UHGV virus genome: UHGV-0160150
Reading direction: 5' to 3' (one strand)
Length of the DNA stretch: 29,487 bases
Source of the DNA: a virus
Positions 1,237 to 11,066 of the stretch are shown one piece after another (position 1 is the first letter of the stretch; the number at the start of each line of letters is the position of its first letter). Made by a program: the position numbers and the translations under genes. Under the pieces are notes generated by a model that saw nothing but the letters and a program-made list of their open reading frames with translations, did not search any database and was not told the origin of the DNA.

Positions 1237-1533
1237 TCAGTCATTACTGATAGCGCCATAGCGTGAGCGGTAATTACGCAGGCGCGGGTCGATATATTCA
1301 GGGAATTTGTCTATTGTCGCTTTTCGCAACGGTCTCATTGCTGTTTCGTTTGTTCGGTCCTTCTCCTGTTTTAGCGCGAGTTGTATATCGCGTCGGTACA
1401 TCCGTTCTGCTTTTGTTTCTGGTGTCAGAGCAAGAAACGCGTCGAAATTGTTTTTGATATTTTCCAGCACCTCCGCCTTGGAGCTACCGGAGCAATTGCG
1501 CGGGTCATCCGCACCATACAGAGGCGCTGGCAT
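1237..1533 (-). CDS. Hypothetical phage protein (98 aa)
   Basis: Minus-strand ORF in an operon-like array downstream of the DUF669-like gene, with an AAGG-type RBS. No domain recognised. Confidence 0.5.
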
Positions 1534-1556
1534 AATGGGAGCCTTATTTTCAATAA

Positions 1557-2144
1557 TCAGAAAGGAGGGTAATCGTTCTGGCTGTAACCATAATCATCTG
1601 CATGATTCTGGCTTACGTTTTTAGAGCGATTGTCTTTATCTTTGAGGCTGGCAACCATGTTGGCGATAGTTTCTGGTTGCTTGCCTTCCGCCTTTTCTTT
1701 AAGGGTTTGACCTGTTTGTGCAATAAACGGGATGCGTATTTCCATCTGGTAGCTGTCTGCGCCAGTCTTTTTGTTTGTGGTTAATACTTTCTGGAGCACT
1801 AACCCGATTTTCTTTCCATGAAACTCAGGAGCAACAAATTTACTGGCGGAAACCATATGTTGCGTTAATTGTCCAATCCCGGCACACCCCATCATGGCGT
1901 GAACGACATTTGCGCCAAATTTGTTTTCCGTTCCGTCATTTTTCTGAACACAGACGCTAAGATATTGGATTTTACGTCCGTCGTCGGATTCTCCAGAAAA
2001 CTCAATAAATTTGGCTCCTTTTTCTGATTGCTTTAGTTCTGCTTCAGTAATGGTAATGATATGGGCGCCAGTTTCGTTAATAAAACCACCTTGCCCTGCG
2101 GTCAGTGCTGCTTCTTCGTTATAAGTAAAAATCACGTTGCTCAT
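1557..2144 (-). CDS. DUF669-like phage protein, usual partner of Sak4 (putative SSB-like recombination accessory)
   Basis: 195-aa ORF whose ATG overlaps the Sak4 stop (ATGA at 2141-2144). The Sak4 plus DUF669 pairing is a recurrent phage recombination module; family assignment by context and size, not motif. Confidence 0.55.
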   Translation of the reverse strand: MSNVIFTYNEEAALTAGQGGFINETGAHIITITEAELKQSEKGAKFIEFSGESDDGRKIQYLSVCVQKNDGTENKFGANVVHAMMGCAGIGQLTQHMVSASKFVAPEFHGKKIGLVLQKVLTTNKKTGADSYQMEIRIPFIAQTGQTLKEKAEGKQPETIANMVASLKDKDNRSKNVSQNHADDYGYSQNDYPPF

Positions 2145-2821
2145 GCGGCGTTTTCCTTAATTTGATGAACATTATTGATGCCGTAGTAATCACAAACAGT
2201 GGCATCGACGAAAGAGAGATCGTTATCAATCTCATTGGAATCAAACATTCCCATTGGGGATTTGACAGTGTCTGCACCGTTGTTTTTCGTGGTGAAAAAG
2301 AACTGGTCATCGCGGGTAAGAGTGCGAAGAACTATAGTAAACATGCCTTCGACAGTGATTTTCTCGTCCAGCATTTTGCCGATAGTTTTCATTTTCACGC
2401 GCCCCATAGGGGTTTCTTCGGTATGTGCAAGAAAATAGACTCTCAGGTCATCAGGTGCATCCTGTGCAGCCTTAATCACCTCCCATGCGTGGCGGCCTAT
2501 CTCAGTAAATTTATCAAACGATTTTTCTTCTGAGCGGCGCATAAACTCATTGCTCATCACATACTGGAAGTCATCAACAATAACGATTCTTTTTCCGTAT
2601 TCGTGAGCACGCTTAATTGCAGCAACTATTACGTCCCATTTGTCAGTGGTAACTACGGTTCCTTTTTTTGCTCTGGCATCCCATGCAAGCCAGTCTTTTG
2701 ATTTAAATGGTAGCGGCTTGCCTATTGGTTTTATAAGTATTGCTTCCTCTGGATTGATATTTCTCATGCTGGTTGATTTTCCGGTGCCAGATTCACCGAG
2801 TATTAATGTCGCAGTTCCCAT
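2141..2821 (-). CDS. Sak4-like RecA-fold ATPase (phage single-strand annealing/recombination protein)
   Basis: 226 aa with N-terminal Walker A (LILGESGTGKST) and Walker B-like hydrophobic stretch ending in DD (RIVIVDDF). GAGG RBS. Occupies the slot lambda uses for bet/exo, downstream of kil. Confidence 0.75.
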   Translation of the reverse strand: MGTATLILGESGTGKSTSMRNINPEEAILIKPIGKPLPFKSKDWLAWDARAKKGTVVTTDKWDVIVAAIKRAHEYGKRIVIVDDFQYVMSNEFMRRSEEKSFDKFTEIGRHAWEVIKAAQDAPDDLRVYFLAHTEETPMGRVKMKTIGKMLDEKITVEGMFTIVLRTLTRDDQFFFTTKNNGADTVKSPMGMFDSNEIDNDLSFVDATVCDYYGINNVHQIKENAA

Positions 2822-2829
2822 AATTTGCC

Positions 2830-3030
2830 TCAGAATGGTAATTCGGATGGGCAGGAAAGAAATTCGCGCTCATTCATGCGCTCTCTTTGCGCCTGCCATA
2901 AACAAAGTTGTTTCTTTGATTTATCTCCCGCTTTACGCCAGTAACGAGCCTCAGCAATGTGATACTCTCTTTTTAATCGACTTAACTCTGGAGTTTTCGC
3001 CAGTTCTACCGGAATCATTTTGACCTCCAT
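2830..3030 (-). CDS. Small hypothetical protein (62-66 aa) in the gam-equivalent slot
   Basis: ORF between kil and Sak4. Two candidate starts (MEVKM... or MIPVE... with GGAGGT RBS). No motif recognised. Confidence 0.4.
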   Translation of the reverse strand: MEVKMIPVELAKTPELSRLKREYHIAEARYWRKAGDKSKKQLCLWQAQRERMNEREFLSCPSELPF

Positions 3031-3128
3031 TTTCTGTAGGCTTCTACGGCTTCACGAAACATCTTTTCATCGCCAATAAAAGTGGCGATAGTGAATTTAG
3101 TCTGGATAGCCATAAGTGTTTTATCCAT
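3015..3128 (-). CDS. kil: Kil-like small protein (host cell-division inhibitor)
   Basis: 37-aa frame MDKTLMAIQTKFTIATFIGDEKMFREAVEAYRKWRSK. ATG at 3128 sits in ATGGATAA, overlapping the cIII stop. Resembles lambda Kil from memory and lies directly downstream of cIII. Confidence 0.45.
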   Translation of the reverse strand: MDKTLMAIQTKFTIATFIGDEKMFREAVEAYRKWRSK

Positions 3129-3261
3129 TTTTGGGAACTCCTGGCTGATTAAGTATGTCGATAAGGCGTTTCCATCCATCACGTAATTTACGTGTGATTC
3201 GTTCAAGTAAAGATTCGGAAGGGCAGCCAGCAACAGGCCACCCTGCAATGGCATATTGCAT
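3121..3261 (-). CDS. cIII: CIII-like protein (FtsH protease inhibitor, stabilises CII)
   Basis: 46 aa MQYAIAGWPVAGCPSESLLERITRKLRDGWKRLIDILNQPGVPKNG, matching lambda CIII as I recall it. Strong RBS AAGGAG 6 nt before ATG at 3261. Confidence 0.65.
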   Translation of the reverse strand: MQYAIAGWPVAGCPSESLLERITRKLRDGWKRLIDILNQPGVPKNG

Positions 3262-3287
3262 GGTGTGCTCCTTATTTATACATAACG

Positions 3288-3310
3288 AAAAACGCCTCGA
3301 GTGAAGCGTT
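3288..3310 (-). terminator. Putative intrinsic terminator (minus strand), upstream of cIII
   Basis: Minus-strand hairpin AACGC...GCGTT followed by a TTTCGTT tract. Confidence 0.35.
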
Positions 3311-3321
3311 ATTGGTATGCA

Positions 3322-3348
3322 TATAAAAAGGCCCTCACACTGGAGGGC
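3322..3348 (-). terminator. Putative intrinsic terminator (minus strand), tL1-like position between ral and cIII
   Basis: Minus-strand hairpin GCCCTC-CAGTGT-GAGGGC followed by CTTTTTA. Confidence 0.5.
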
Positions 3349-3410
3349 AAAGAAGATTTCCAATAATCAGAACAAGTCGGCTCCTGTTTAGTTACGAGCG
3401 ACATTGCTCC

Positions 3411-3438
3411 GTGTATTCACTCGTTGGAATGAATACAC
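3411..3438. repeat. Perfect 9-bp inverted repeat GTGTATTCA / TGAATACAC with 10-nt loop
   Basis: Read directly; lies in the noncoding gap between ral-like and cIII. Confidence 0.6.
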
Positions 3439-3484
3439 AGTGCAGTGTTTATTCTGTTGTTTATGCCAAAAATAAAGGCCACCA

Positions 3485-3685
3485 TCAGGCAGCCTTGTTA
3501 TTCTGTTTACCAAGTTCTCTGGCAATCATTGCCGTCGTTCGTATTGCCCATTTATCGACATATTTCCCATCTTCCATTACAGGAAACATTTCTTCAGGCT
3601 TAACCATGCATTCCGATTGCAGCTTGCATCCATTGCATCGTTTGAATTGCCCACACCATTGATTTTTATCAATAGTCGTAGTCAT
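3485..3685 (-). CDS. ral: Small Cys-rich protein, Ral-like (restriction alleviation) candidate
   Basis: 66 aa MTTTIDKNQWCGQFKRCNGCKLQSEC... with four Cys in CX5CX2CX5C spacing. Size, position (between N side and cIII) and my recollection of lambda Ral fit; unverified. Confidence 0.45.
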   Translation of the reverse strand: MTTTIDKNQWCGQFKRCNGCKLQSECMVKPEEMFPVMEDGKYVDKWAIRTTAMIARELGKQNNKAA

Positions 3686-3755
3686 AAGGATAGTCCTGGT
3701 ATTGTTCCATCACATCCTGAGGATGCTCTTCGAACTCTTCAAATTCTTCTTCCAT
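3669..3755 (-). CDS. Tiny acidic ORF (28 aa), orf28-like position upstream of ral
   Basis: MEEEFEEFEEHPQDVMEQYQDYPYDYDY with GAGGTG RBS 5 nt before ATG at 3755. Overlaps the start of the ral-like gene in another frame. Below the ORF-track size cutoff; found by eye. Confidence 0.3.
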   Translation of the reverse strand: MEEEFEEFEEHPQDVMEQYQDYPYDYDY

Positions 3756-3936
3756 ATATCACCTCAAATAAGTGGTTTGCTGCCTAATTTCATTTTCTGG
3801 CGACCAACACAAGTCACACCCATTTCACTGCGTGGCTTGCGGTAGTAAAGATTGTGCCTGTCTTTTAACCACATCAGGCTCGGTGGTTCTCGTGTACCCC
3901 TACAGCGAGAAAAATAGTAAAATCCTCTTCACCCCC

Positions 3937-4299
3937 TTACTTTGTCAGGGGGATATCTCCTTCAGTTCTGACCATTCGCCTTAATACTTTCCTTAAGTCG
4001 ATGTAAAGTTGAATGTCTCCATTTGCTGCGGCATCAGCCATTTTTTGCCTGACAAGCAGTAATGTTTCATACGGCTCAATAAGAATATCGTCATGAGTAA
4101 TTAGGTGAAGCGTTGCCGCATCAACTATTCCTAGAGCTGCGCCAAGTATCAAAAATTCCCTGCTATTTTTGTCGCATGAGGAGATAAGCGTATTTAGCGC
4201 ATACCTAATATTCTTTATAGCTGTTGTTAATGCTGCAATTTCTTCTATGGCGTCTTCTTCAATGAGCTTTTTAAGCTCATATTTTTCTTCCTGACCCAT
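3937..4299 (-). CDS. Hypothetical AT-rich accessory protein (120 aa), immediately downstream of N
   Basis: Track ORF 3937..4383. Internal ATG at 4299 (MGQEEKYELKK) has GAGGT RBS and directly follows the N stop. No TM segment or recognised motif. AT-rich relative to neighbours. Confidence 0.55.
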   Translation of the reverse strand: MGQEEKYELKKLIEEDAIEEIAALTTAIKNIRYALNTLISSCDKNSREFLILGAALGIVDAATLHLITHDDILIEPYETLLLVRQKMADAAANGDIQLYIDLRKVLRRMVRTEGDIPLTK

Positions 4300-4301
4300 A
4301 A

Positions 4302-4571
4302 TTACCTCGCCGTCAGTTGTTTTGATTTCCGGTAGCCTGCCGCGTAAATAGCTACGTTTGGCAGGCAAATACTTCCACTGCATTCATCTGCCTTCTTGCA
4401 GCGAAGGCTTCCGAGTGATGCTGCTTTATCTGCTCTGACGCAACCAGAGAGCTTTAGCGCAATTTTTCGTGCCAATCGCTGTTCTTGCATTGCCTGTTCA
4501 CGTTGAGCCTGTCTGCGTGCTCTGCGGCGATTTCTGGCGTTATCATCAGCCAGATAAGTAACGATTATCAT
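4302..4571 (-). CDS. N: N-like transcription antiterminator (arginine-rich motif)
   Basis: 89 aa from ATG at 4571 (GGAGG RBS, 5-nt spacer). N-terminal ARM DDNARNRRRARRQAQREQ resembles lambda N's QTRRRERRAEKQAQW. First gene downstream of pL/nutL; matching nut sites are present on both operons. Confidence 0.65.
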   Translation of the reverse strand: MIIVTYLADDNARNRRRARRQAQREQAMQEQRLARKIALKLSGCVRADKAASLGSLRCKKADECSGSICLPNVAIYAAGYRKSKQLTAR

Positions 4572-6716: not shown

Positions 6717-6760
6717 GCTCTTTAACAGTCATGGTCCTCATTCCCGCCGAAATGCGGGAA
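6717..6760 (+). promoter_or_regulatory. nutR candidate (boxA-like CGCTCTTTAACA plus boxB hairpin TTCCCGC-CGAAAT-GCGGGAA)
   Basis: Same boxA and boxB as the minus-strand nutL site; located between cro and cII as in lambda. Confidence 0.55.
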
Positions 6761-6817
6761 TACAACGCGCATCAGTTGGTGCGCATAACTTCTTATTTGT
6801 TAAGGAAATACTTACAT

Positions 6818-7096
6818 ATGCAACTTACAAGTACTCGCAAGAAAGCGAATGCAATTACAAGCAACATCCTAAATCGAATTGCTGTACGTGGTCAGCGAAA
6901 GGTTGCTGATGCATTAGGGATCAATGAATCGCAAATTTCGCGATGGAAAGACAGCTTTATCCCAAAGATGGCCATGCTTCTGGCTGTGCTGGAGTGGGGT
7001 GTTGAAGACGAGGAATTAGCGGAGCTGGCAAAGAAAGTAGCCATGGTGCTGACAAAAGAAAAGCCTCAAGACTGCGGCAACAGTTTTGAGGCCTGA
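6818..7096 (+). CDS. cII: CII-like transcriptional activator
   Basis: 92 aa from ATG at 6818 (AAGGA RBS). Conserved ...[29 protein letters not shown]... matches lambda CII's SQISRWK...[10 protein letters not shown]. Confidence 0.8.
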
Positions 7097-7130: not shown

Positions 7131-7277
7131 ATGACAAAACAACTCAGTCCTTACCAGGACAAAATTCACAAACACATACTACGTGATCGCTTCCTGTCCA
7201 GCTTCAAGCAGCCTGGTCGATTCCGGGCTGAGTTGGAAAAAGTGAAGCTGATGCAGAAGGAGAAAGGTCATGAGTAA
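7131..7277 (+). CDS. Small hypothetical protein (48 aa) between cII and O
   Basis: ATG at 7131 preceded by AGGAG (6 nt); the stop overlaps the O start region. Confidence 0.4.
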
Positions 7278-8130
7278 TCTTGCAACCGTAACACATTTAA
7301 GGCCCTCACAACGGCCTGTGGAGCGTCGTGTGGCAGAAGTTGAAGATGGTTATACCCGTCTTGCAAATGCCCTGTATGAAGAGCTTATCGGCGCAGATTT
7401 AACAAAAAATCAGAGCAAGGTTGCCCACGCCATATGCCGTAAAACATACGGATACGGTAAAAAGATGGATCGCATCTCTGATAGTCAGTTAGCTCAAATT
7501 ACCAGGCTGCCAAGACAGAAGGTAAACAAGGCCAAGAATGAGCTTATCGCGATGAAGGTAATCCTTCGCGAAGGCCAGCAAATCGGGCCTAACAAGAACA
7601 TCGAGGAATGGCAAATCGAAGGGTGTCACTACTCTGGTGATAATGTCACTGCATTGGTGACAAAAAGTGTCACCAAAACGGTGACAGCGCTGTCACCAAA
7701 ACAGGGACACACAAAAGAAACTATTACAAAAGAAAAAAGAAATAATAAAAACACTATGTCCGAAAGTGTTCGGACGGAGTGTGAAAAATCATCTGACCGT
7801 CACGAAGAAACCGACAAGGCATTCGAGGAAATATTCTGGTGTGCAGGCATGCGGAAAGCCGGGAAAAAAAACGCAGCTTCGGCATTCAGAACACAGTTCA
7901 GGGAATGGCGTAAAACTACCAGGGGTACGGCAAGCGAGTTTGCCACGATGCTGGCAGAAGACATCGCATGCAGGAATGGTAAGCAGTTCGGATTCGACAG
8001 GTTGTTACCATCGAGCTACTTGAACGGTCAGCGCTGGAACGACGAAAAGCCAGAAACCATTCAACCACAATCCAAACCATCATCCGCAATCACCGTATCG
8101 AAAACTGGCTACGTGTTTTTCGACAGGTGA
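7270..8130 (+). CDS. O: Replication initiator, lambda O-like N-terminal domain
   Basis: 286 aa. N-terminal region ([53 protein letters not shown]...GPNKNIEEW) matches lambda O's ori-binding domain as recalled; C-terminal half differs. Contains the iteron ori. Confidence 0.8.
7624..7775. repeat. Putative replication origin inside the O gene: iterons, AT-rich tract, palindrome
   Basis: Palindromic iterons GGTGACA-AAAAG-TGTCACC (7656-7674) and GGTGACA-GCGC-TGTCACC (7680-7697) plus degenerate TGTCAC copies upstream; an A-rich stretch 7711-7750; inverted repeat GTCCGAA-AGTG-TTCGGAC (7758-7775). Same layout as lambda ori. Confidence 0.6.
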
Positions 8131-8133
8131 ACC

Positions 8134-8241
8134 ATGAAATCAAAAATCAAATCGCTACTGGTCGCTGGTTATAACCACGGCTGGTTAAGTATTTCGTTTG
8201 TCGATTTCTGGTTTAAAAATCTCAATCTGAGGGAATCATGA
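8134..8241 (+). CDS. Small ORF (35 aa) coupled between O and the primase-helicase
   Basis: ATG at 8134 with AGGTGA RBS overlapping the O stop; its TGA overlaps the primase-helicase ATG (ATGA). Found by eye. Confidence 0.3.
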   Translation: MKSKIKSLLVAGYNHGWLSISFVDFWFKNLNLRES

Positions 8242-10118
8242 GGCCAAGTGAACTTAGCGACCTGCTTTGGGCGCAGGTTGACAGGGTGGCTCCGCACCTG
8301 TTGCCAAATGGCAAGAAAGAGGGGCATGAGTGGGTTGCCGGTAACGTCAACGGTGACAAGGGAAACAGCCTTAAGGTCAACCTTAGCGGCAAGAAAAAAT
8401 GGGCTGATTTCGCTGAGGGAGACGGCGGTGACATGCTTGATTTGTGGATGGCATGTCGTGGAATTAACCTGCATCAGGCTATGCAGGAAGCGAAAGCATT
8501 TCTCGGTATCAAGGATGACGATCACCATTTCGATGCCAGACGTGAGAAAAAATTCTCCAGACCTGATCGCAAGAAAATCGCCCGCTACGTTACCAGAACA
8601 GAATCCCATCTTGAGTACCTGCAATCGCGTGGCATATCGCCAGAAATCGTAAAGCGCTACGAGGTTGTCAGCGGCAAGGTGTGGAATGGAGAGCGGGAAC
8701 TGGATGCTCTGGTGATTCCGTACAAACGCGATGGTGAGTTGTTGCAGGTCAAGCGAATCAGCACTGAGCGCCCGGACGGGAAGAAAGTCATTATGGCAGA
8801 AGGTGATTGCGAACCTTGCCTGTTCGGATGGCAGGCTCTGGACGCTGGCGTGAGGGCGGTTGTACTTTGCGAAGGCGAAATTGATTGTATGAGCTATGCG
8901 CAATACGGCATCTCGGCGTTATCCGTACCGTTTGGTGGAGGGAAAGGCGCTAAGCAACAGTGGATTGAGTTTGAGTATCACAACCTCGACAGGTTTGAGG
9001 AAATATTCATCTCGATGGACGTTGATGATGTTGGTCGTGAAGCCGCAAGGGAAATCGCAAGCCGACTCGGTGAACATCGTTGCCGTCTTGTTACTCTGCC
9101 GTGCAAAGACATCAACGAATGCCTGATGAACGGTGTTACCGAGGATGAAATCTGGCAGTACATCGGCACGGCATCCTACTTCGATCCTGAAGAACTCTAC
9201 AGCGCGCGAGAGTTTTACCAGGACACTATCAACGCTTTCTACGGCAAGCAGCAGTATCTGTTTAATCCACCGTGGGAATCTCTGGCAGATAAATTCCAGT
9301 TCCGTGAGGCAGAGTTGACGCTGGTCAATGGTGTGAACGGTCACGGAAAAACGGAGGTTGTCGGGCATATGGCACTTGAGGCAATGCGTCAGGGTGTGAA
9401 GACGTGCATCGCGTCACTTGAGCTGAAGCCTGGTATTCTCCTTAAGCGCCTTACCCGTCAGGCGACGTGCTGCAAGATGCCGCCAGTGCTGGAAATTGAC
9501 TCTGCATTTAAATTTTATGACGAAAGACTTTGGGTGTTTGGCCTGACCGGAACGGCGAAAGCCGACAGGCTGATCGAAATATTCGACTACGCTCGCCGCC
9601 GATACGGGATCCAGTTATTCATCATCGACAGCCTGATGAAATGTGGCATAGGCGACGATGACTATAACGGGCAGAAGGCGTTTGTTGACTCGATTTGCGA
9701 CTTCAAAAACAAAACAAACTCCCACGTCATTCTCGTTACTCACTCGCGAAAAGGAGACAGCGAAGAAAAACCAACCGGGAAAATGGACGTAAAAGGCTCT
9801 GGAGCGATAACAGACCTGACAGACAACCTTTTCATCATCTGGCGTAACAAGGCTCGCGAGAGAGCGTTACAGAGAGTTCAGAGTGGTGAAAAGATGTCAG
9901 AGAAGGACGAACAGCTACTGGCATCTCCGGCATCTGTTTTGATGCTTGAAAAACAACGTAACGGCGAAGGTTGGGAAGGTGGTGTCCCGTTGTTCCTTGA
10001 CGAGCAATCGCACCAGTTCCTGCAACTTGAATCAGGATCGCCATATAGCTACATCGCCAATATGCCGAAATCGGAATATGACGAGGCGTGGCGACAGGAA
10101 AACGTGACGGAGTATTAA
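8238..10118 (+). CDS. Primase-helicase fusion (Toprim primase N-terminal region, DnaB/RecA-like helicase C-terminal region)
   Basis: 626 aa. Toprim-like acidic motifs (VVLCEGEIDCMSY, ISMDVDDVGREAA); C-terminal Walker A-like VNGVNGHGKTE and Walker B-like LFIIDSL. Takes the place of lambda P. Confidence 0.8.
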   Translation: MRPSELSDLLWAQVDRVAPHLLPNGKKEGHEWVAGNVNGDKGNSLKVNLSGKKKWADFAEGDGGDMLDLWMACRGINLHQAMQEAKAFLGIKDDDHHFDARREKKFSRPDRKKIARYVTRTESHLEYLQSRGISPEIVKRYEVVSGKVWNGERELDALVIPYKRDGELLQVKRISTERPDGKKVIMAEGDCEPCLFGWQALDAGVRAVVLCEGEIDCMSYAQYGISALSVPFGGGKGAKQQWIEFEYHNLDRFEEIFISMDVDDVGREAAREIASRLGEHRCRLVTLPCKDINECLMNGVTEDEIWQYIGTASYFDPEELYSAREFYQDTINAFYGKQQYLFNPPWESLADKFQFREAELTLVNGVNGHGKTEVVGHMALEAMRQGVKTCIASLELKPGILLKRLTRQATCCKMPPVLEIDSAFKFYDERLWVFGLTGTAKADRLIEIFDYARRRYGIQLFIIDSLMKCGIGDDDYNGQKAFVDSICDFKNKTNSHVILVTHSRKGDSEEKPTGKMDVKGSGAITDLTDNLFIIWRNKARERALQRVQSGEKMSEKDEQLLASPASVLMLEKQRNGEGWEGGVPLFLDEQSHQFLQLESGSPYSYIANMPKSEYDEAWRQENVTEY

Positions 10119-10200
10119 ATGACAATCTACATCACTGAGCTAATAGCAGGGTTATCGTTACTAATGGTTCTTACTGTATATATTATTAAGTATATTCTTT

Positions 10201-10812
10201 ATGCGAATAAAAAAAACAATTGATCACGATGAGCTTCTGTCAACATTATCATATGACTCAGAAACAGGAATATTTAAATGGCTAAAAACAAATTCAGTAG
10301 TAAGAGTAAAAGGTAGTATTGCTGGAGGTGTTAGTGGTGGTTATATATGCATTAGCATAAATAATGTTTTGTATTATGCGCATAGGCTTGCTTGGTTCTA
10401 TGTATACAAAAAATGGCCTCCTAAGTTTATTGATCATGTAAATGGGAACAGACTTGACAATAGGATTTCAAATCTAAGACTGGCAACAGAGGAGCAGAAT
10501 GCAAGAAACATTGTAGGTAATAGGTTAAACACATCCGGTGCGATTGGAGTGTCTTGGGATAAGACAACTGGCAGGTGGAAGTCTTATGTTGGTTATAAAA
10601 ATAAGACAATATCGTTAGGGTATTTCGATAGCAAAGAAGATGCAGCATTCATAGCAGCACTAGCAAGAAAGAAACTATATGGAACTTATGCGAGTAAAGC
10701 ACTTAATTGCGAGCATGAGCTTTTATCTCAATTTAATAATGATGAGGATAAACTTGCGGAATATCTTAAGGAAAAATCTAAAAGGACTCGAAAGCGTGTT
10801 AAAAAAAGATAA
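10201..10812 (+). mobile_element. HNH homing endonuclease with AP2-type DNA-binding domain (free-standing)
   Basis: 203-aa ORF. N-terminal LLSTLSYDSETGIFKWL, HNH core IDHVNGNRLDNRISNLRLATEEQN, AP2-like segment GVSWDKTTGRWKSYVGYKNKTISLGYFDSKEDAA. Strongly AT-rich island between the replication and nin modules. Confidence 0.75.
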
Positions 10813-10859
10813 AGGCCTGCTGGTAATCGCAGGTCTTTTTATTTGGGGGAGAGTAAATC

Positions 10860-11066
10860 GTGGCTGAGTTAATTTTCTCTGCATTGAGGCTTCTCGGTGC
10901 TATGTGGATGGTGGCGACGTTCATTGTGATTGCTGGCTGTTTTGTCCGGTTGGTAGGCGAAGGTAAAGACCTGGTGGGTGTGCTTTTCGGTAGCATTCTC
11001 CTGTGGGTGATTATCGGTGTTGCGCCTGTTGCTGTAGCAAAAATGGCGTGGCGTTTTGTTAGTTGA
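10860..11066 (+). CDS. Small hydrophobic protein (68 aa, two predicted TM helices)
   Basis: ORF with GTG start at 10860. Two hydrophobic stretches (MWMVATFIVIAGCFV and VLFGSILLWVIIGVAPVAV). Confidence 0.4.
   Translation: MAELIFSALRLLGAMWMVATFIVIAGCFVRLVGEGKDLVGVLFGSILLWVIIGVAPVAVAKMAWRFVS

What the first reader, a model, noticed from the sequence alone, without database searches (positions are those of the whole stretch)
8134..10118. O-type initiator paired with a primase-helicase fusion instead of a P-type helicase loader
The lambda-like O N-terminal domain is followed by a divergent C-terminus, a coupled 35-aa micro-ORF, and a 626-aa Toprim plus DnaB/RecA-like helicase protein. The phage appears to bring its own primase and helicase rather than hijacking host DnaB through a P-type loader.
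Basis: partly seen in the sequence, partly recalled or inferred. Interest (0 to 1): 0.45.

Follow-up and report, generated by a model that had tools for sequence, protein, structure and literature searches.

The report
ES18-type phage replication module
This prophage starts DNA replication with a lambda-O-like origin-binding protein, a conserved 35-residue protein and its own T7-gp4-like primase-helicase instead of a lambda-P-type loader. The arrangement is real but has been annotated since phage ES18 (2005), so it is ordinary.

Summary
Window 7270-8130 encodes a 286-aa O-type initiator: a Phage_rep_O N-terminal domain, four iterons, an A-rich tract inside the gene, and a C-terminal half unrelated to lambda O. 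A 35-aa ORF follows at 8134-8241, three bases after the O stop, and its stop overlaps the next start (ATGA). The 626-aa product of 8238-10118 is a T7 gp4/Twinkle-type primase-helicase. Every catalytic residue checked against T7 gp4 is conserved, but the four zinc-ligand cysteines of the N-terminal domain are absent. No P-, DnaC- or DnaB-like gene is in the window.

The module is already known. ES18 gp59-gp60-gp61 carry the same annotation, it is described in epsilon34 and the P22-like Anderson typing phages, and its Stx-phage form is "Eru5". Parts of the 3.9-kb region match 1173 of 5426 complete E. coli genomes.

New details found here:
- The 35-aa ORF is a real gene (always 35 codons, median dN/dS 0.29).
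- The O C-terminal domain belongs to a widespread family with no Pfam model. It occurs behind many different DNA-binding domains and also beside P-like or DnaC-like loaders.
- An 18-bp dyad with compensatory changes lies right of the A-rich tract.

Independence from host DnaB and DnaG remains untested.

The parts
7270..8130 (+). O-type replication initiator, 286 aa. It has an N-terminal Phage_rep_O DNA-binding domain (aa 20-114), a linker that carries the origin, and a C-terminal domain (aa ~157-286) unrelated to the lambda O C-terminus.
   Evidence: Pfam and TIGR01610 matches. Lambda O aligns only over its aa 1-155. The C-terminal part matches phrog_33384. It is 97.6% identical to ES18 gp59 over the last 123 aa.
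7624..7709 (.). Four ~19-bp dyad-symmetric iterons (TGTCACyaaaacGGTGACA) at 7624-7643, 7644-7662, 7668-7686 and 7691-7709. These are the presumed initiator binding sites (ori).
   Evidence: the repeat finder families D1/D3 and inverted repeats I1/I2; sequence read. The position and layout match the annotated lambda iterons and the 'similar to lambda ori' feature of ES18.
7710..7757 (.). A-rich tract (ACAAAAGAAA repeated), the presumed DNA-unwinding element of the origin.
   Evidence: Sequence and direct repeat D2. It is analogous to the 38-bp AT-rich tract of ori-lambda (PMC3349717).
7758..7775 (.). 18-bp dyad (GTCCGAA agtg TTCGGAC) at the right edge of the A-rich tract. It lies at the left edge of the block that is co-inherited with the primase-helicase.
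   Evidence: Inverted repeat I4. It sits at the same position in 13 distinct variants: 89.7% of cells are paired against 3-54% in slid controls, and 5 of 9 pairs have changes on both sides. Function unknown, and not specific to primase-helicase modules.
8134..8241 (+). Conserved 35-aa protein (ES18 gp60 family, phrog_21848), closely spaced or overlapping with both neighbouring genes, consistent with translational coupling.
   Evidence: It is exactly 35 codons in all 17 related loci examined. Invariant residues are M1 K2 K6 L9 G12 Y13 N14 G16 V23 F27 R33. Variable sites by codon position are 24/14/31, and median dN/dS is 0.29 over 67 pairs. The only family match is phrog_21848 (unknown function); Pfam and NCBIfam give nothing. 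PGAP does not annotate it.
8238..10118 (+). T7 gp4/Twinkle-type bifunctional primase-helicase, 626 aa. It has a zinc-less ZBD-like domain (aa 1-~95), an RNA-polymerase/Toprim domain (aa ~110-310), a linker, and an SF4 RecA-type helicase domain (aa ~355-600).
   Evidence: Family and structure matches. AlphaFold model of aa 1-330 has pLDDT 92.5. Foldseek hits are Aquifex DnaG ZBD+RPD, T7 gp4, Twinkle and the DnaG ZBD 1d0q. T7 residues R84, E157, D207, D209, D237, K318, E343, D424, H465 and R522 are all conserved, while C17/C20/C36/C39 are not.
10119..10860 (+). Not part of the module: a ninA gene interrupted by a low-GC HNH-AP2 homing-endonuclease gene (10201-10812), followed by the ninA 3' end with a tR2/L2-type terminator (10811-10838). 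This marks the right boundary of the replication genes.
   Evidence: Pfam HNH_3 plus AP2. Alignment with mEp043 and ES18, which lack the insert. Terminator-like site. GC 0.39.

Best explanation
This is the replication module of a P22-like lambdoid prophage, of the type first annotated in Salmonella phage ES18 (gp59-gp60-gp61).

Proposed mechanism, all of it inferred from homology, anatomy and co-inheritance:
1. The O-like initiator binds through its N-terminal Phage_rep_O domain to four iterons inside its own gene.
2. It opens the adjacent A-rich tract, as lambda O does.
3. Lambda O would then use its C-terminal domain to capture a P-DnaB complex. This phage instead supplies its own ring helicase fused to a DnaG-type primase, a T7 gp4/Twinkle-family SF4 enzyme.
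4. That enzyme is loaded on the melted origin, probably by ring opening and without a separate AAA+ or P-type loader. The initiator's C-terminal domain and/or the 35-aa protein may help.
5. It then unwinds DNA 5'->3' and primes for the host DNA polymerase III.

The three genes are closely spaced or overlapping and are probably made together.

Shown here: the gene and domain architecture, conservation of the catalytic residues, the origin anatomy, absence of a loader gene, co-inheritance of the O C-terminal half, the micro-ORF and the primase-helicase as one block, and purifying selection on the micro-ORF.
For: - Domains and folds.
- Catalytic residues: all T7 gp4 Toprim, Walker A/B, catalytic-base, H465 and arginine-finger residues are invariant across relatives down to 25% identity. 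So is R84, which PMC9198812 reports as needed for primase activity, helicase activity and ssDNA binding.
- Origin anatomy: iterons, A-rich tract and dyad lie inside the initiator gene. This matches the annotated ori-lambda and the ES18 rep_origin feature.
- No loader: no P, DnaC or DnaB homologue in the window.
- Block inheritance: identity to ES18 and to Stx2a phage F451 jumps from about 0.5 to 0.95 near 7750. The iterons and N-terminal domain are exchanged separately from the C-terminal half, micro-ORF and primase-helicase. Three different N-terminal domains carry the same block: Phage_rep_O of two specificities, HTH_36, and an unassigned domain in LMessi/Fraca.
- Co-occurrence: all 20 IMG/VR loci whose C-terminal domain is at least 49% identical have the primase-helicase downstream. 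All 17 of them that were examined for it have the 35-codon ORF.
- More distant Vibrio and Pseudomonas relatives of the primase-helicase also directly abut an initiator-like gene.
- Published annotation agrees: AY736146, PMC2629481, PMC10307801.
Against: - No experiment on host dnaB/dnaG dependence, on enzymatic activity or on protein contacts was found for any member of this module.
- The ZBD-like domain has none of the four zinc-ligand cysteines, and no member of a 53-sequence family alignment has a CxxC...CxxC pattern. From my own knowledge, the T7 ZBD is required for template-directed priming.
- The initiator C-terminal domain family is not specific to this helicase. Relatives at 30-44% identity are followed by P-like, lambda-P-like or DnaC-like loaders. 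The domain may therefore do something other than bind the primase-helicase.
- Its predicted structure was poor (pLDDT 63) and matched nothing solved.
- Vibrio and Pseudomonas versions lack the micro-ORF, so it cannot be universally required.
Confidence: 0.75

Rival explanations
1. The fusion protein supplies only the helicase. Its primase half is inactive or repurposed because the zinc-binding domain has lost its zinc site, and host DnaG makes the primers. P22 gp12 works with DnaG in this way.
For: None of the T7 ZBD cysteines C17, C20, C36 and C39 is conserved across this clade (C36 coincidentally aligns with C73 of the window protein), and none of the 53 family members has a Cys4 pattern. 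From my own knowledge, T7 gp4B, which lacks the ZBD, does not do template-directed priming. Animal Twinkle has lost primase activity through sequence changes in its primase domain (abstract of PMC3610141). P22 gp12 is reported to act with DnaG primase (Wickner 1984, as cited in PMC8022706).
Against: Unlike animal Twinkle, all Toprim acidic residues (E212, D261, D263, D291) and the R84 equivalent are invariant down to 25% identity. The ZBD fold itself is retained, strongly conserved and confidently modelled. From my own knowledge, DnaG is recruited through the N-terminal domain of DnaB, which a gp4-type helicase lacks.
Confidence: 0.15
2. Origin firing still uses host DnaB. The initiator's C-terminal domain recruits DnaB directly or through a host loader, and the primase-helicase serves a later stage such as rolling-circle replication or restart.
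For: The same C-terminal domain family occurs in initiators followed by P-like, lambda-P-like and DnaC-like loaders, all of which act on host DnaB. So the domain's common partner could be a host protein.
Against: No loader gene is present. The primase-helicase occupies exactly the P/gp12 slot, in tight gene coupling with the initiator. It is co-inherited with the C-terminal half in every close relative. From my own knowledge, lambda O alone does not load DnaB.
Confidence: 0.07
3. The 35-codon ORF has no function as a peptide. It is only a relay that couples translation of the primase-helicase to that of the initiator.
For: It starts 3 nt after the O stop and overlaps the next start. Vibrio and Pseudomonas modules do without it, and there the initiator stop overlaps the primase-helicase start directly. 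The only family match is a PHROG of unknown function, and Pfam and NCBIfam give nothing. It evolves faster than its neighbours (pN 0.17 against 0.007-0.014 for window versus F451).
Against: The length is fixed at 35 codons in every variant. Eleven residues are invariant, including a GYNxG motif. Median dN/dS is 0.29 and third-position variability is in excess. It is retained intact where an HNH gene separates it from the primase-helicase (L028 and L031).
Confidence: 0.2

Closest known systems
Salmonella phage ES18 gp59-gp60-gp61 (AY736146). The same module is in epsilon34 (genes 50-52), g341c, SEN22, mEp043, Sf101 and the P22-like Anderson typing phages STMP5/17.
   Same: Same three genes in the same order. 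The last 123 aa of O are 97.6% identical, the 35-aa protein differs at 2 residues, and the primase-helicase is 93.9% identical. mEp043 and Sf101 are 98% identical in DNA over the whole O-to-primase-helicase stretch. The ES18 record already calls gp59 lambda-gpO-like with an internal lambda-like ori, and gp61 a T7-gene-4-like primase/helicase.
   Different: The N-terminal domain and iterons here are of the mEp043/Sf101 specificity (TGTCAC...GTGACA). ES18 has the lambda specificity (ATCCCTC...GAGGGA). The window also has an HNH gene inserted in ninA just downstream.
'Eru5' replication region of Stx2a-converting phages (Stx2a_F403 AP012529, F451, 24B, Min27; PMC8951638).
   Same: The C-terminal half of the initiator, the 35-aa ORF and the primase-helicase are shared at about 97% DNA identity from window position ~7746 onward.
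   Different: The Stx phages have an HTH_36 N-terminal domain with GC-rich 21-bp iterons instead of Phage_rep_O. Their primase-helicase carries a 342-aa LAGLIDADG intein after the Walker A lysine. The window allele has no intein.
Bacteriophage lambda O/P with ori-lambda.
   Same: The N-terminal domain is 49% identical to lambda O aa 1-155. Four iterons and an A/T-rich tract lie inside the initiator gene. The genomic position after cII and before the nin region is the same.
   Different: The C-terminal domain is unrelated at the BLAST level. There is no P gene. A primase-helicase occupies the P slot, so capture of host DnaB is not expected.
Phage P22 gene 18 / gene 12.
   Same: An O-type initiator is paired with a phage-encoded replicative helicase rather than a loader, in a P22-like genome.
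   Different: P22 gp12 is a DnaB-type helicase without a primase domain and is reported to work with host DnaG (Wickner 1984, as cited in PMC8022706). tblastn with gp12 finds nothing significant in the window.
T7 gp4 and mitochondrial Twinkle (SF4 primase-helicases).
   Same: ZBD-like, RPD/Toprim, linker and RecA-type helicase architecture. All catalytic residues of both halves are conserved. These are the best PDB matches by sequence and by fold.
   Different: Only about 25% identity. The zinc ligands are absent. The protein acts in a temperate phage that encodes an origin-binding initiator and, as far as the window shows, no DNA polymerase. It must therefore cooperate with the host polymerase (inference).

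Membership tests
T7 gp4 / Twinkle-type SF4 primase-helicase | Toprim fold with the acidic metal-binding residues (T7 E157, D207, D209, D237) | tested here: met
   Toprim_2 E 3.5e-12. E212, D261, D263 and D291 are invariant in the alignment with T7. The predicted fold matches T7 gp4 and DnaG RNA-polymerase domains.
T7 gp4 / Twinkle-type SF4 primase-helicase | C-terminal RecA-type helicase domain with Walker A (K318), catalytic base (E343), Walker B (D424), H465 and arginine finger (R522) | tested here: met
   K371, E395, D464, H502 and R574 align and are invariant. AAA_25 is above its cut-off and DnaB_C is just below (23.8 against 27 bits). PDB T7 gp4 E 7e-25 over aa 192-539.
T7 gp4 / Twinkle-type SF4 primase-helicase | N-terminal zinc-binding domain with four Cys ligands | tested here: not met
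   The fold is present: 1d0q DnaG ZBD and 2au3 are hit, and TIGR01391 dnaG matches aa 26-143. The ligands are not: of the four T7 cysteines only C36 has an aligned Cys (C73), and it is not conserved in the clade. No Cys4 pattern occurs in 53 relatives.
T7 gp4 / Twinkle-type SF4 primase-helicase | Hexamer formation, NTP-driven 5'-3' unwinding and primer synthesis | not testable with these tools
   Biochemistry is required. No published assay for this protein family was found.
Lambda O-type initiator | Phage_rep_O N-terminal DNA-binding domain | tested here: met
   Pfam E 1.1e-37. TIGR01610 at 105 bits against a cut-off of 45.5. 49% identity to lambda O aa 1-155.
Lambda O-type initiator | Origin (about four dyad-symmetric iterons plus an A/T-rich tract) inside the initiator gene, between the two domains | tested here: met
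   Iterons at 7624-7709 and an A-rich tract at 7710-7757. Same layout as the annotated lambda iterons.
Lambda O-type initiator | C-terminal domain of the lambda type, which binds P | tested here: not met
   No BLAST similarity to the lambda O or P22 gp18 C-terminal halves. The domain belongs to a different family without a Pfam model.
ES18-type replication module (O-like + 35-aa protein + primase-helicase) | Three syntenic genes with the shared C-terminal half of O, gp60 homologue and gp61 homologue | tested here: met
   All 17 related loci examined for gene order have the same arrangement.
Lambda P / DnaC-type helicase loader | Presence of a P-like or AAA+ DnaC-like gene next to the initiator | tested here: not met
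   tblastn with lambda P, two P-like proteins and a DnaC-like loader gave no hit in the window. The ORF list shows no other candidate between O and ninB.

The most novel reading that the evidence does not exclude
The enterobacterial form of this module may contain a dedicated, so far unstudied route for placing a T7-type ring helicase on a lambda-type origin. In this reading, the conserved 35-aa protein (GYNxG motif) bridges the initiator's C-terminal domain and the primase-helicase. The covarying 18-bp dyad at the right edge of the A-rich tract would be the entry or positioning site. The zinc-less ZBD would give a primase with a new mode of template recognition.
Probability: 0.2. Interest if true: 0.5.

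Novelty: already known. Interest (0 to 1): 0.2.

Why it matters
- As found, the module is a textbook case of lambdoid mosaicism. The origin-recognition half (N-terminal domain plus iterons) and the helicase-side half (C-terminal domain, micro-ORF, primase-helicase) are exchanged as separate units.
- It is common. Parts of the 3.9-kb region match 1173 of 5426 complete E. coli genomes, and it is present in Stx2a phages of outbreak strains as "Eru5".
- A phage that brings its own helicase and primase should not depend on host DnaB, DnaC or DnaG. That would affect host range, prophage induction kinetics and Shiga-toxin output, and sensitivity to defences that watch replication origins.
- None of this has been tested biochemically, so the module is a reasonable but not surprising target for experiments.

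Tried and rejected
- AlphaFold model of the O C-terminal domain (aa 154-286, 17-sequence alignment): pLDDT only 63, with three helices. Foldseek against the PDB gave no match with E below 2. No fold assignment is possible.
- Pfam at E up to 1 gave nothing for the O C-terminal domain. Pfam at E up to 0.01 gave nothing for the micro-ORF. NCBIfam at E up to 0.01 matched only the N-terminal domain of O and gave nothing for the micro-ORF.
- The idea that the O C-terminal domain is a primase-helicase-specific adaptor is rejected as stated. Homologues at 30-44% identity precede P-like, lambda-P-like or DnaC-like genes. The domain follows HTH_36, DUF1376, Phage_rep_O, DnaD_N and Lin1244_N domains.
- The idea that the 18-bp dyad is the helicase-specific half of ori is not supported. 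A similar GTCCG...CGGAC dyad occurs in a locus with a lambda-P-like partner (L055). None occurs in the Vibrio or Pseudomonas primase-helicase modules.
- The two homologous-protein searches on the C-terminal domain returned almost only partial or near-identical proteins. They added little depth to the alignment.
- The ES18 genome paper (PMC545730) is not held, so its text could not be quoted. The GenBank annotation was used instead.
- No paper reporting dnaB/dnaG dependence or biochemistry of this module was found.
- The window-versus-ES18 comparison of the micro-ORF alone was uninformative, with only two differences. More distant variants were needed.
Full report
**What is in the sequence**

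Between cII (6731-7096) and the nin region, the + strand carries three closely spaced genes.

The first, 7270-8130 (286 aa), has a Phage_rep_O domain at aa 20-114 (Pfam E 1.1e-37; TIGR01610). tblastn with lambda O aligns only its residues 1-155 (49% identity) to 7270-7740 and nothing after that.

Inside this gene, between the two protein domains, lie four ~19-bp dyad-symmetric repeats (TGTCACyaaaacGGTGACA; 7624-7709). An A-rich tract follows at 7710-7757, and then an inverted repeat. This is the layout of ori-lambda as annotated in NC_001416 and described in PMC3349717.

The second gene, 8134-8241, encodes 35 residues. It begins 3 nt after the O stop, and its TGA overlaps the next ATG.

The third, 8238-10118 (626 aa), matches Toprim_2 (aa 209-296), AAA_25 and, just under its cut-off, DnaB_C. 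It also matches phrog_239 'DNA primase/helicase' at E 1e-171. Among solved structures its best matches are T7 gp4 (E 7e-25) and Twinkle. The stated span (8134-10118) omits the O gene itself.

**The primase-helicase**

I aligned the protein with relatives down to 25% identity, including T7 gp4. The following T7 residues are invariant in that alignment:
- the Toprim acidic residues E157, D207, D209 and D237 (window E212, D261, D263, D291);
- R84, which PMC9198812 reports as needed for primase activity, helicase activity and ssDNA binding;
- the helicase residues K318, E343, D424, H465 and R522 (window K371, E395, D464, H502, R574).

An AlphaFold model of residues 1-330, built on 53 sequences, is confident (pLDDT 92.5). 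Its best Foldseek matches are Aquifex DnaG (zinc-binding plus RNA-polymerase domains), T7 gp4 and Twinkle. The isolated DnaG zinc-binding domain 1d0q is also hit.

The N-terminal ~95 residues therefore have the ZBD fold, but the four zinc-ligand cysteines of T7 are not conserved here. None of the 53 relatives has a Cys4 pattern. Helicase function is well supported. Primase function is likely but not assured.

**No loader**

tblastn with lambda P, P22 gp12, a DnaC-like loader and two P-like proteins found nothing significant in the 29.5-kb window. The gene after the primase-helicase is ninA, interrupted by an HNH gene, followed by ninB.

**It is a known module**

- The ES18 GenBank record annotates gp59 as lambda-gpO-like with an internal 'similar to lambda ori' feature. 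It lists gp60 (35 aa) as function unknown, and gp61 as 'putative primase/helicase; similar to phage T7 gene 4'.
- The window proteins are 97.6% (last 123 aa of O), 33/35 residues and 93.9% identical to these.
- mEp043, Sf101 and vB_EcoP-720R6 are 98% identical in DNA across the whole stretch.
- The epsilon34 paper describes the same region (PMC2629481).
- In Stx phages the block is the 'Eru5' replication region, represented by Stx2a_F403 (PMC8951638). That phage is hit H14.
- Parts of the 3.9-kb query match 1173 of 5426 complete E. coli genomes.

**Modular inheritance**

DNA identity between the window and ES18, or the window and Stx2a phage F451, rises from about 0.5 to about 0.95 near position 7750. 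Many phage hits begin at window ~7746.

The N-terminal domain travels with its iterons. The C-terminal half of O travels with the micro-ORF and the primase-helicase.

The same right-hand block is found behind several different N-terminal domains:
- Phage_rep_O of lambda specificity in ES18 (iterons ATCCCTC...GAGGGA);
- Phage_rep_O of another specificity here;
- an HTH_36 domain with GC-rich 21-bp repeats in F451;
- an unassigned domain in LMessi and Fraca.

In 46 IMG/VR loci recovered with the C-terminal domain, all 20 with at least 49% identity have the primase-helicase downstream. Loci at or below 44% identity instead have P-like, lambda-P-like, DnaC-like or unidentified partners.

A full HMMER scan found 357 cluster representatives with this domain, among the 150 listed mostly at the C-terminal end of proteins of roughly 200-400 aa. 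In 114 of them the N-terminal domains include HTH_36 (21), DUF1376 (12), Phage_rep_O (10), DnaD_N (9) and Lin1244_N (4). No Pfam model covers the C-terminal domain itself.

The 'divergent C-terminus' is thus a widespread, uncharacterised initiator domain. It is co-inherited with the primase-helicase in the close clade but is not exclusive to it across the family.

**The 35-aa ORF**

It is present and exactly 35 codons long in every one of 17 related loci examined, giving 15 distinct DNA sequences when the window and ES18 are included. Eleven residues are invariant (MK...K..L..GYN.G......V...F.....R..). Variable sites by codon position are 24/14/31, and median dN/dS is 0.29. Only this frame is open in all five variants tested.

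It stays intact where an HNH gene has been inserted between it and the primase-helicase (L028 and L031).

It is a real gene, but it evolves faster than its neighbours. It is absent from the Vibrio and Pseudomonas forms of the module, where the initiator stop overlaps the primase-helicase start. Its function is unknown. An accessory role in helicase recruitment is a guess.

**The dyad**

At 7758-7775 (GTCCGAA agtg TTCGGAC), immediately right of the A-rich tract, an 18-bp dyad occupies the same position in 13 distinct variants. 89.7% of cells are paired, against 3-54% when partners are slid by 1-3 columns. Five of nine pairs change on both sides, and no shuffle out of 500 reaches the observed covariation score.

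The sequences fall into only about five lineages, so this is suggestive rather than conclusive. The dyad lies within coding sequence (SESVRT).

A similar dyad occurs in a locus with a lambda-P-like partner, and none occurs in the Vibrio or Pseudomonas modules. I do not tie it to the helicase type.

**Mechanism and verdict**

The best reading is as follows. The O-like protein marks and opens the origin. The phage's own SF4 helicase-primase is then placed on it without a P- or DnaC-type loader, and it primes for the host polymerase. Confidence is 0.75. The architecture is shown here, and the steps are inferred.

Three rivals remain open at low probability:
- the protein acts as a helicase only, with priming by host DnaG;
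- host DnaB is still used at the origin;
- the micro-ORF is a mere coupling relay.

It should be scored as already known and of low interest.

Noticed in passing
window 10119-10860: A low-GC (0.39) HNH-AP2 endonuclease gene (10201-10812) is inserted inside ninA. The first 8 codons of ninA (MTIYITEL) start at 10119. The ninA 3' end, with a tR2/L2-like terminator, follows at 10811-10838. mEp043 and ES18 lack the insert. Only 76 of the 1173 matching E. coli genomes cover at least 80% of the query that includes it.
   Followed up: partly
L016 (Stx2a phage F451, NC_049924) 1501-4407; corresponds to window ~9350: In Stx2a phages (F451, F403, 24B, Min27) the homologous primase-helicase is 968 aa. A 342-aa LAGLIDADG/Hint intein is inserted directly after the Walker A lysine (GHGK|T). 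The window allele is intein-free. In older records the split matches were annotated as 'P' and 'primase'.
   Followed up: partly
L028 3935-4429 and L031 3936-4460 (IMG/VR loci): A 164-174-aa HNH endonuclease gene sits between the 35-aa ORF and the primase-helicase in two relatives. It is a second, independent homing-endonuclease insertion site in this module.
   Followed up: no
window 7758-7775 (outer arms 7752-7756 / 7778-7782): An 18-bp dyad right of the A-rich tract has compensatory changes across 13 variants. On the minus strand it reads as a hairpin followed by the T-rich complement of the A-rich tract and was flagged as terminator-like. Its function is unknown.
   Followed up: partly
window 8134-8241: The 35-aa gene is not annotated by PGAP in RefSeq E. 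coli genomes, where a 107-nt 'gap' separates the replication protein and the toprim protein. Between the window and F451 it is a local divergence hot spot: 22% of its nucleotides differ, against 1.5-5% in the flanking genes.
   Followed up: yes
window 7738-8130 (O aa 157-286): The C-terminal domain (FxxFW..K..K..A..F ... FGFD.L.P..YLN..RW.DE) has no Pfam model and no structural match. It occurs in at least 357 cluster representatives behind at least five different N-terminal DNA-binding domain families.
   Followed up: partly
window 8238-8522 (primase-helicase aa 1-95): The domain has the zinc-binding-domain fold but no zinc ligands. Within the family, positions 33, 48 and 56 are Cys in some members but never form a Cys4 site.
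   Followed up: partly
window 7131-7277: A small DUF2740 gene (ES18 gp58, HK97 gene 53-like) lies between cII and O, and its end overlaps the O start. PHROG labels its family 'tail protein', which is implausible for this position.
   Followed up: no
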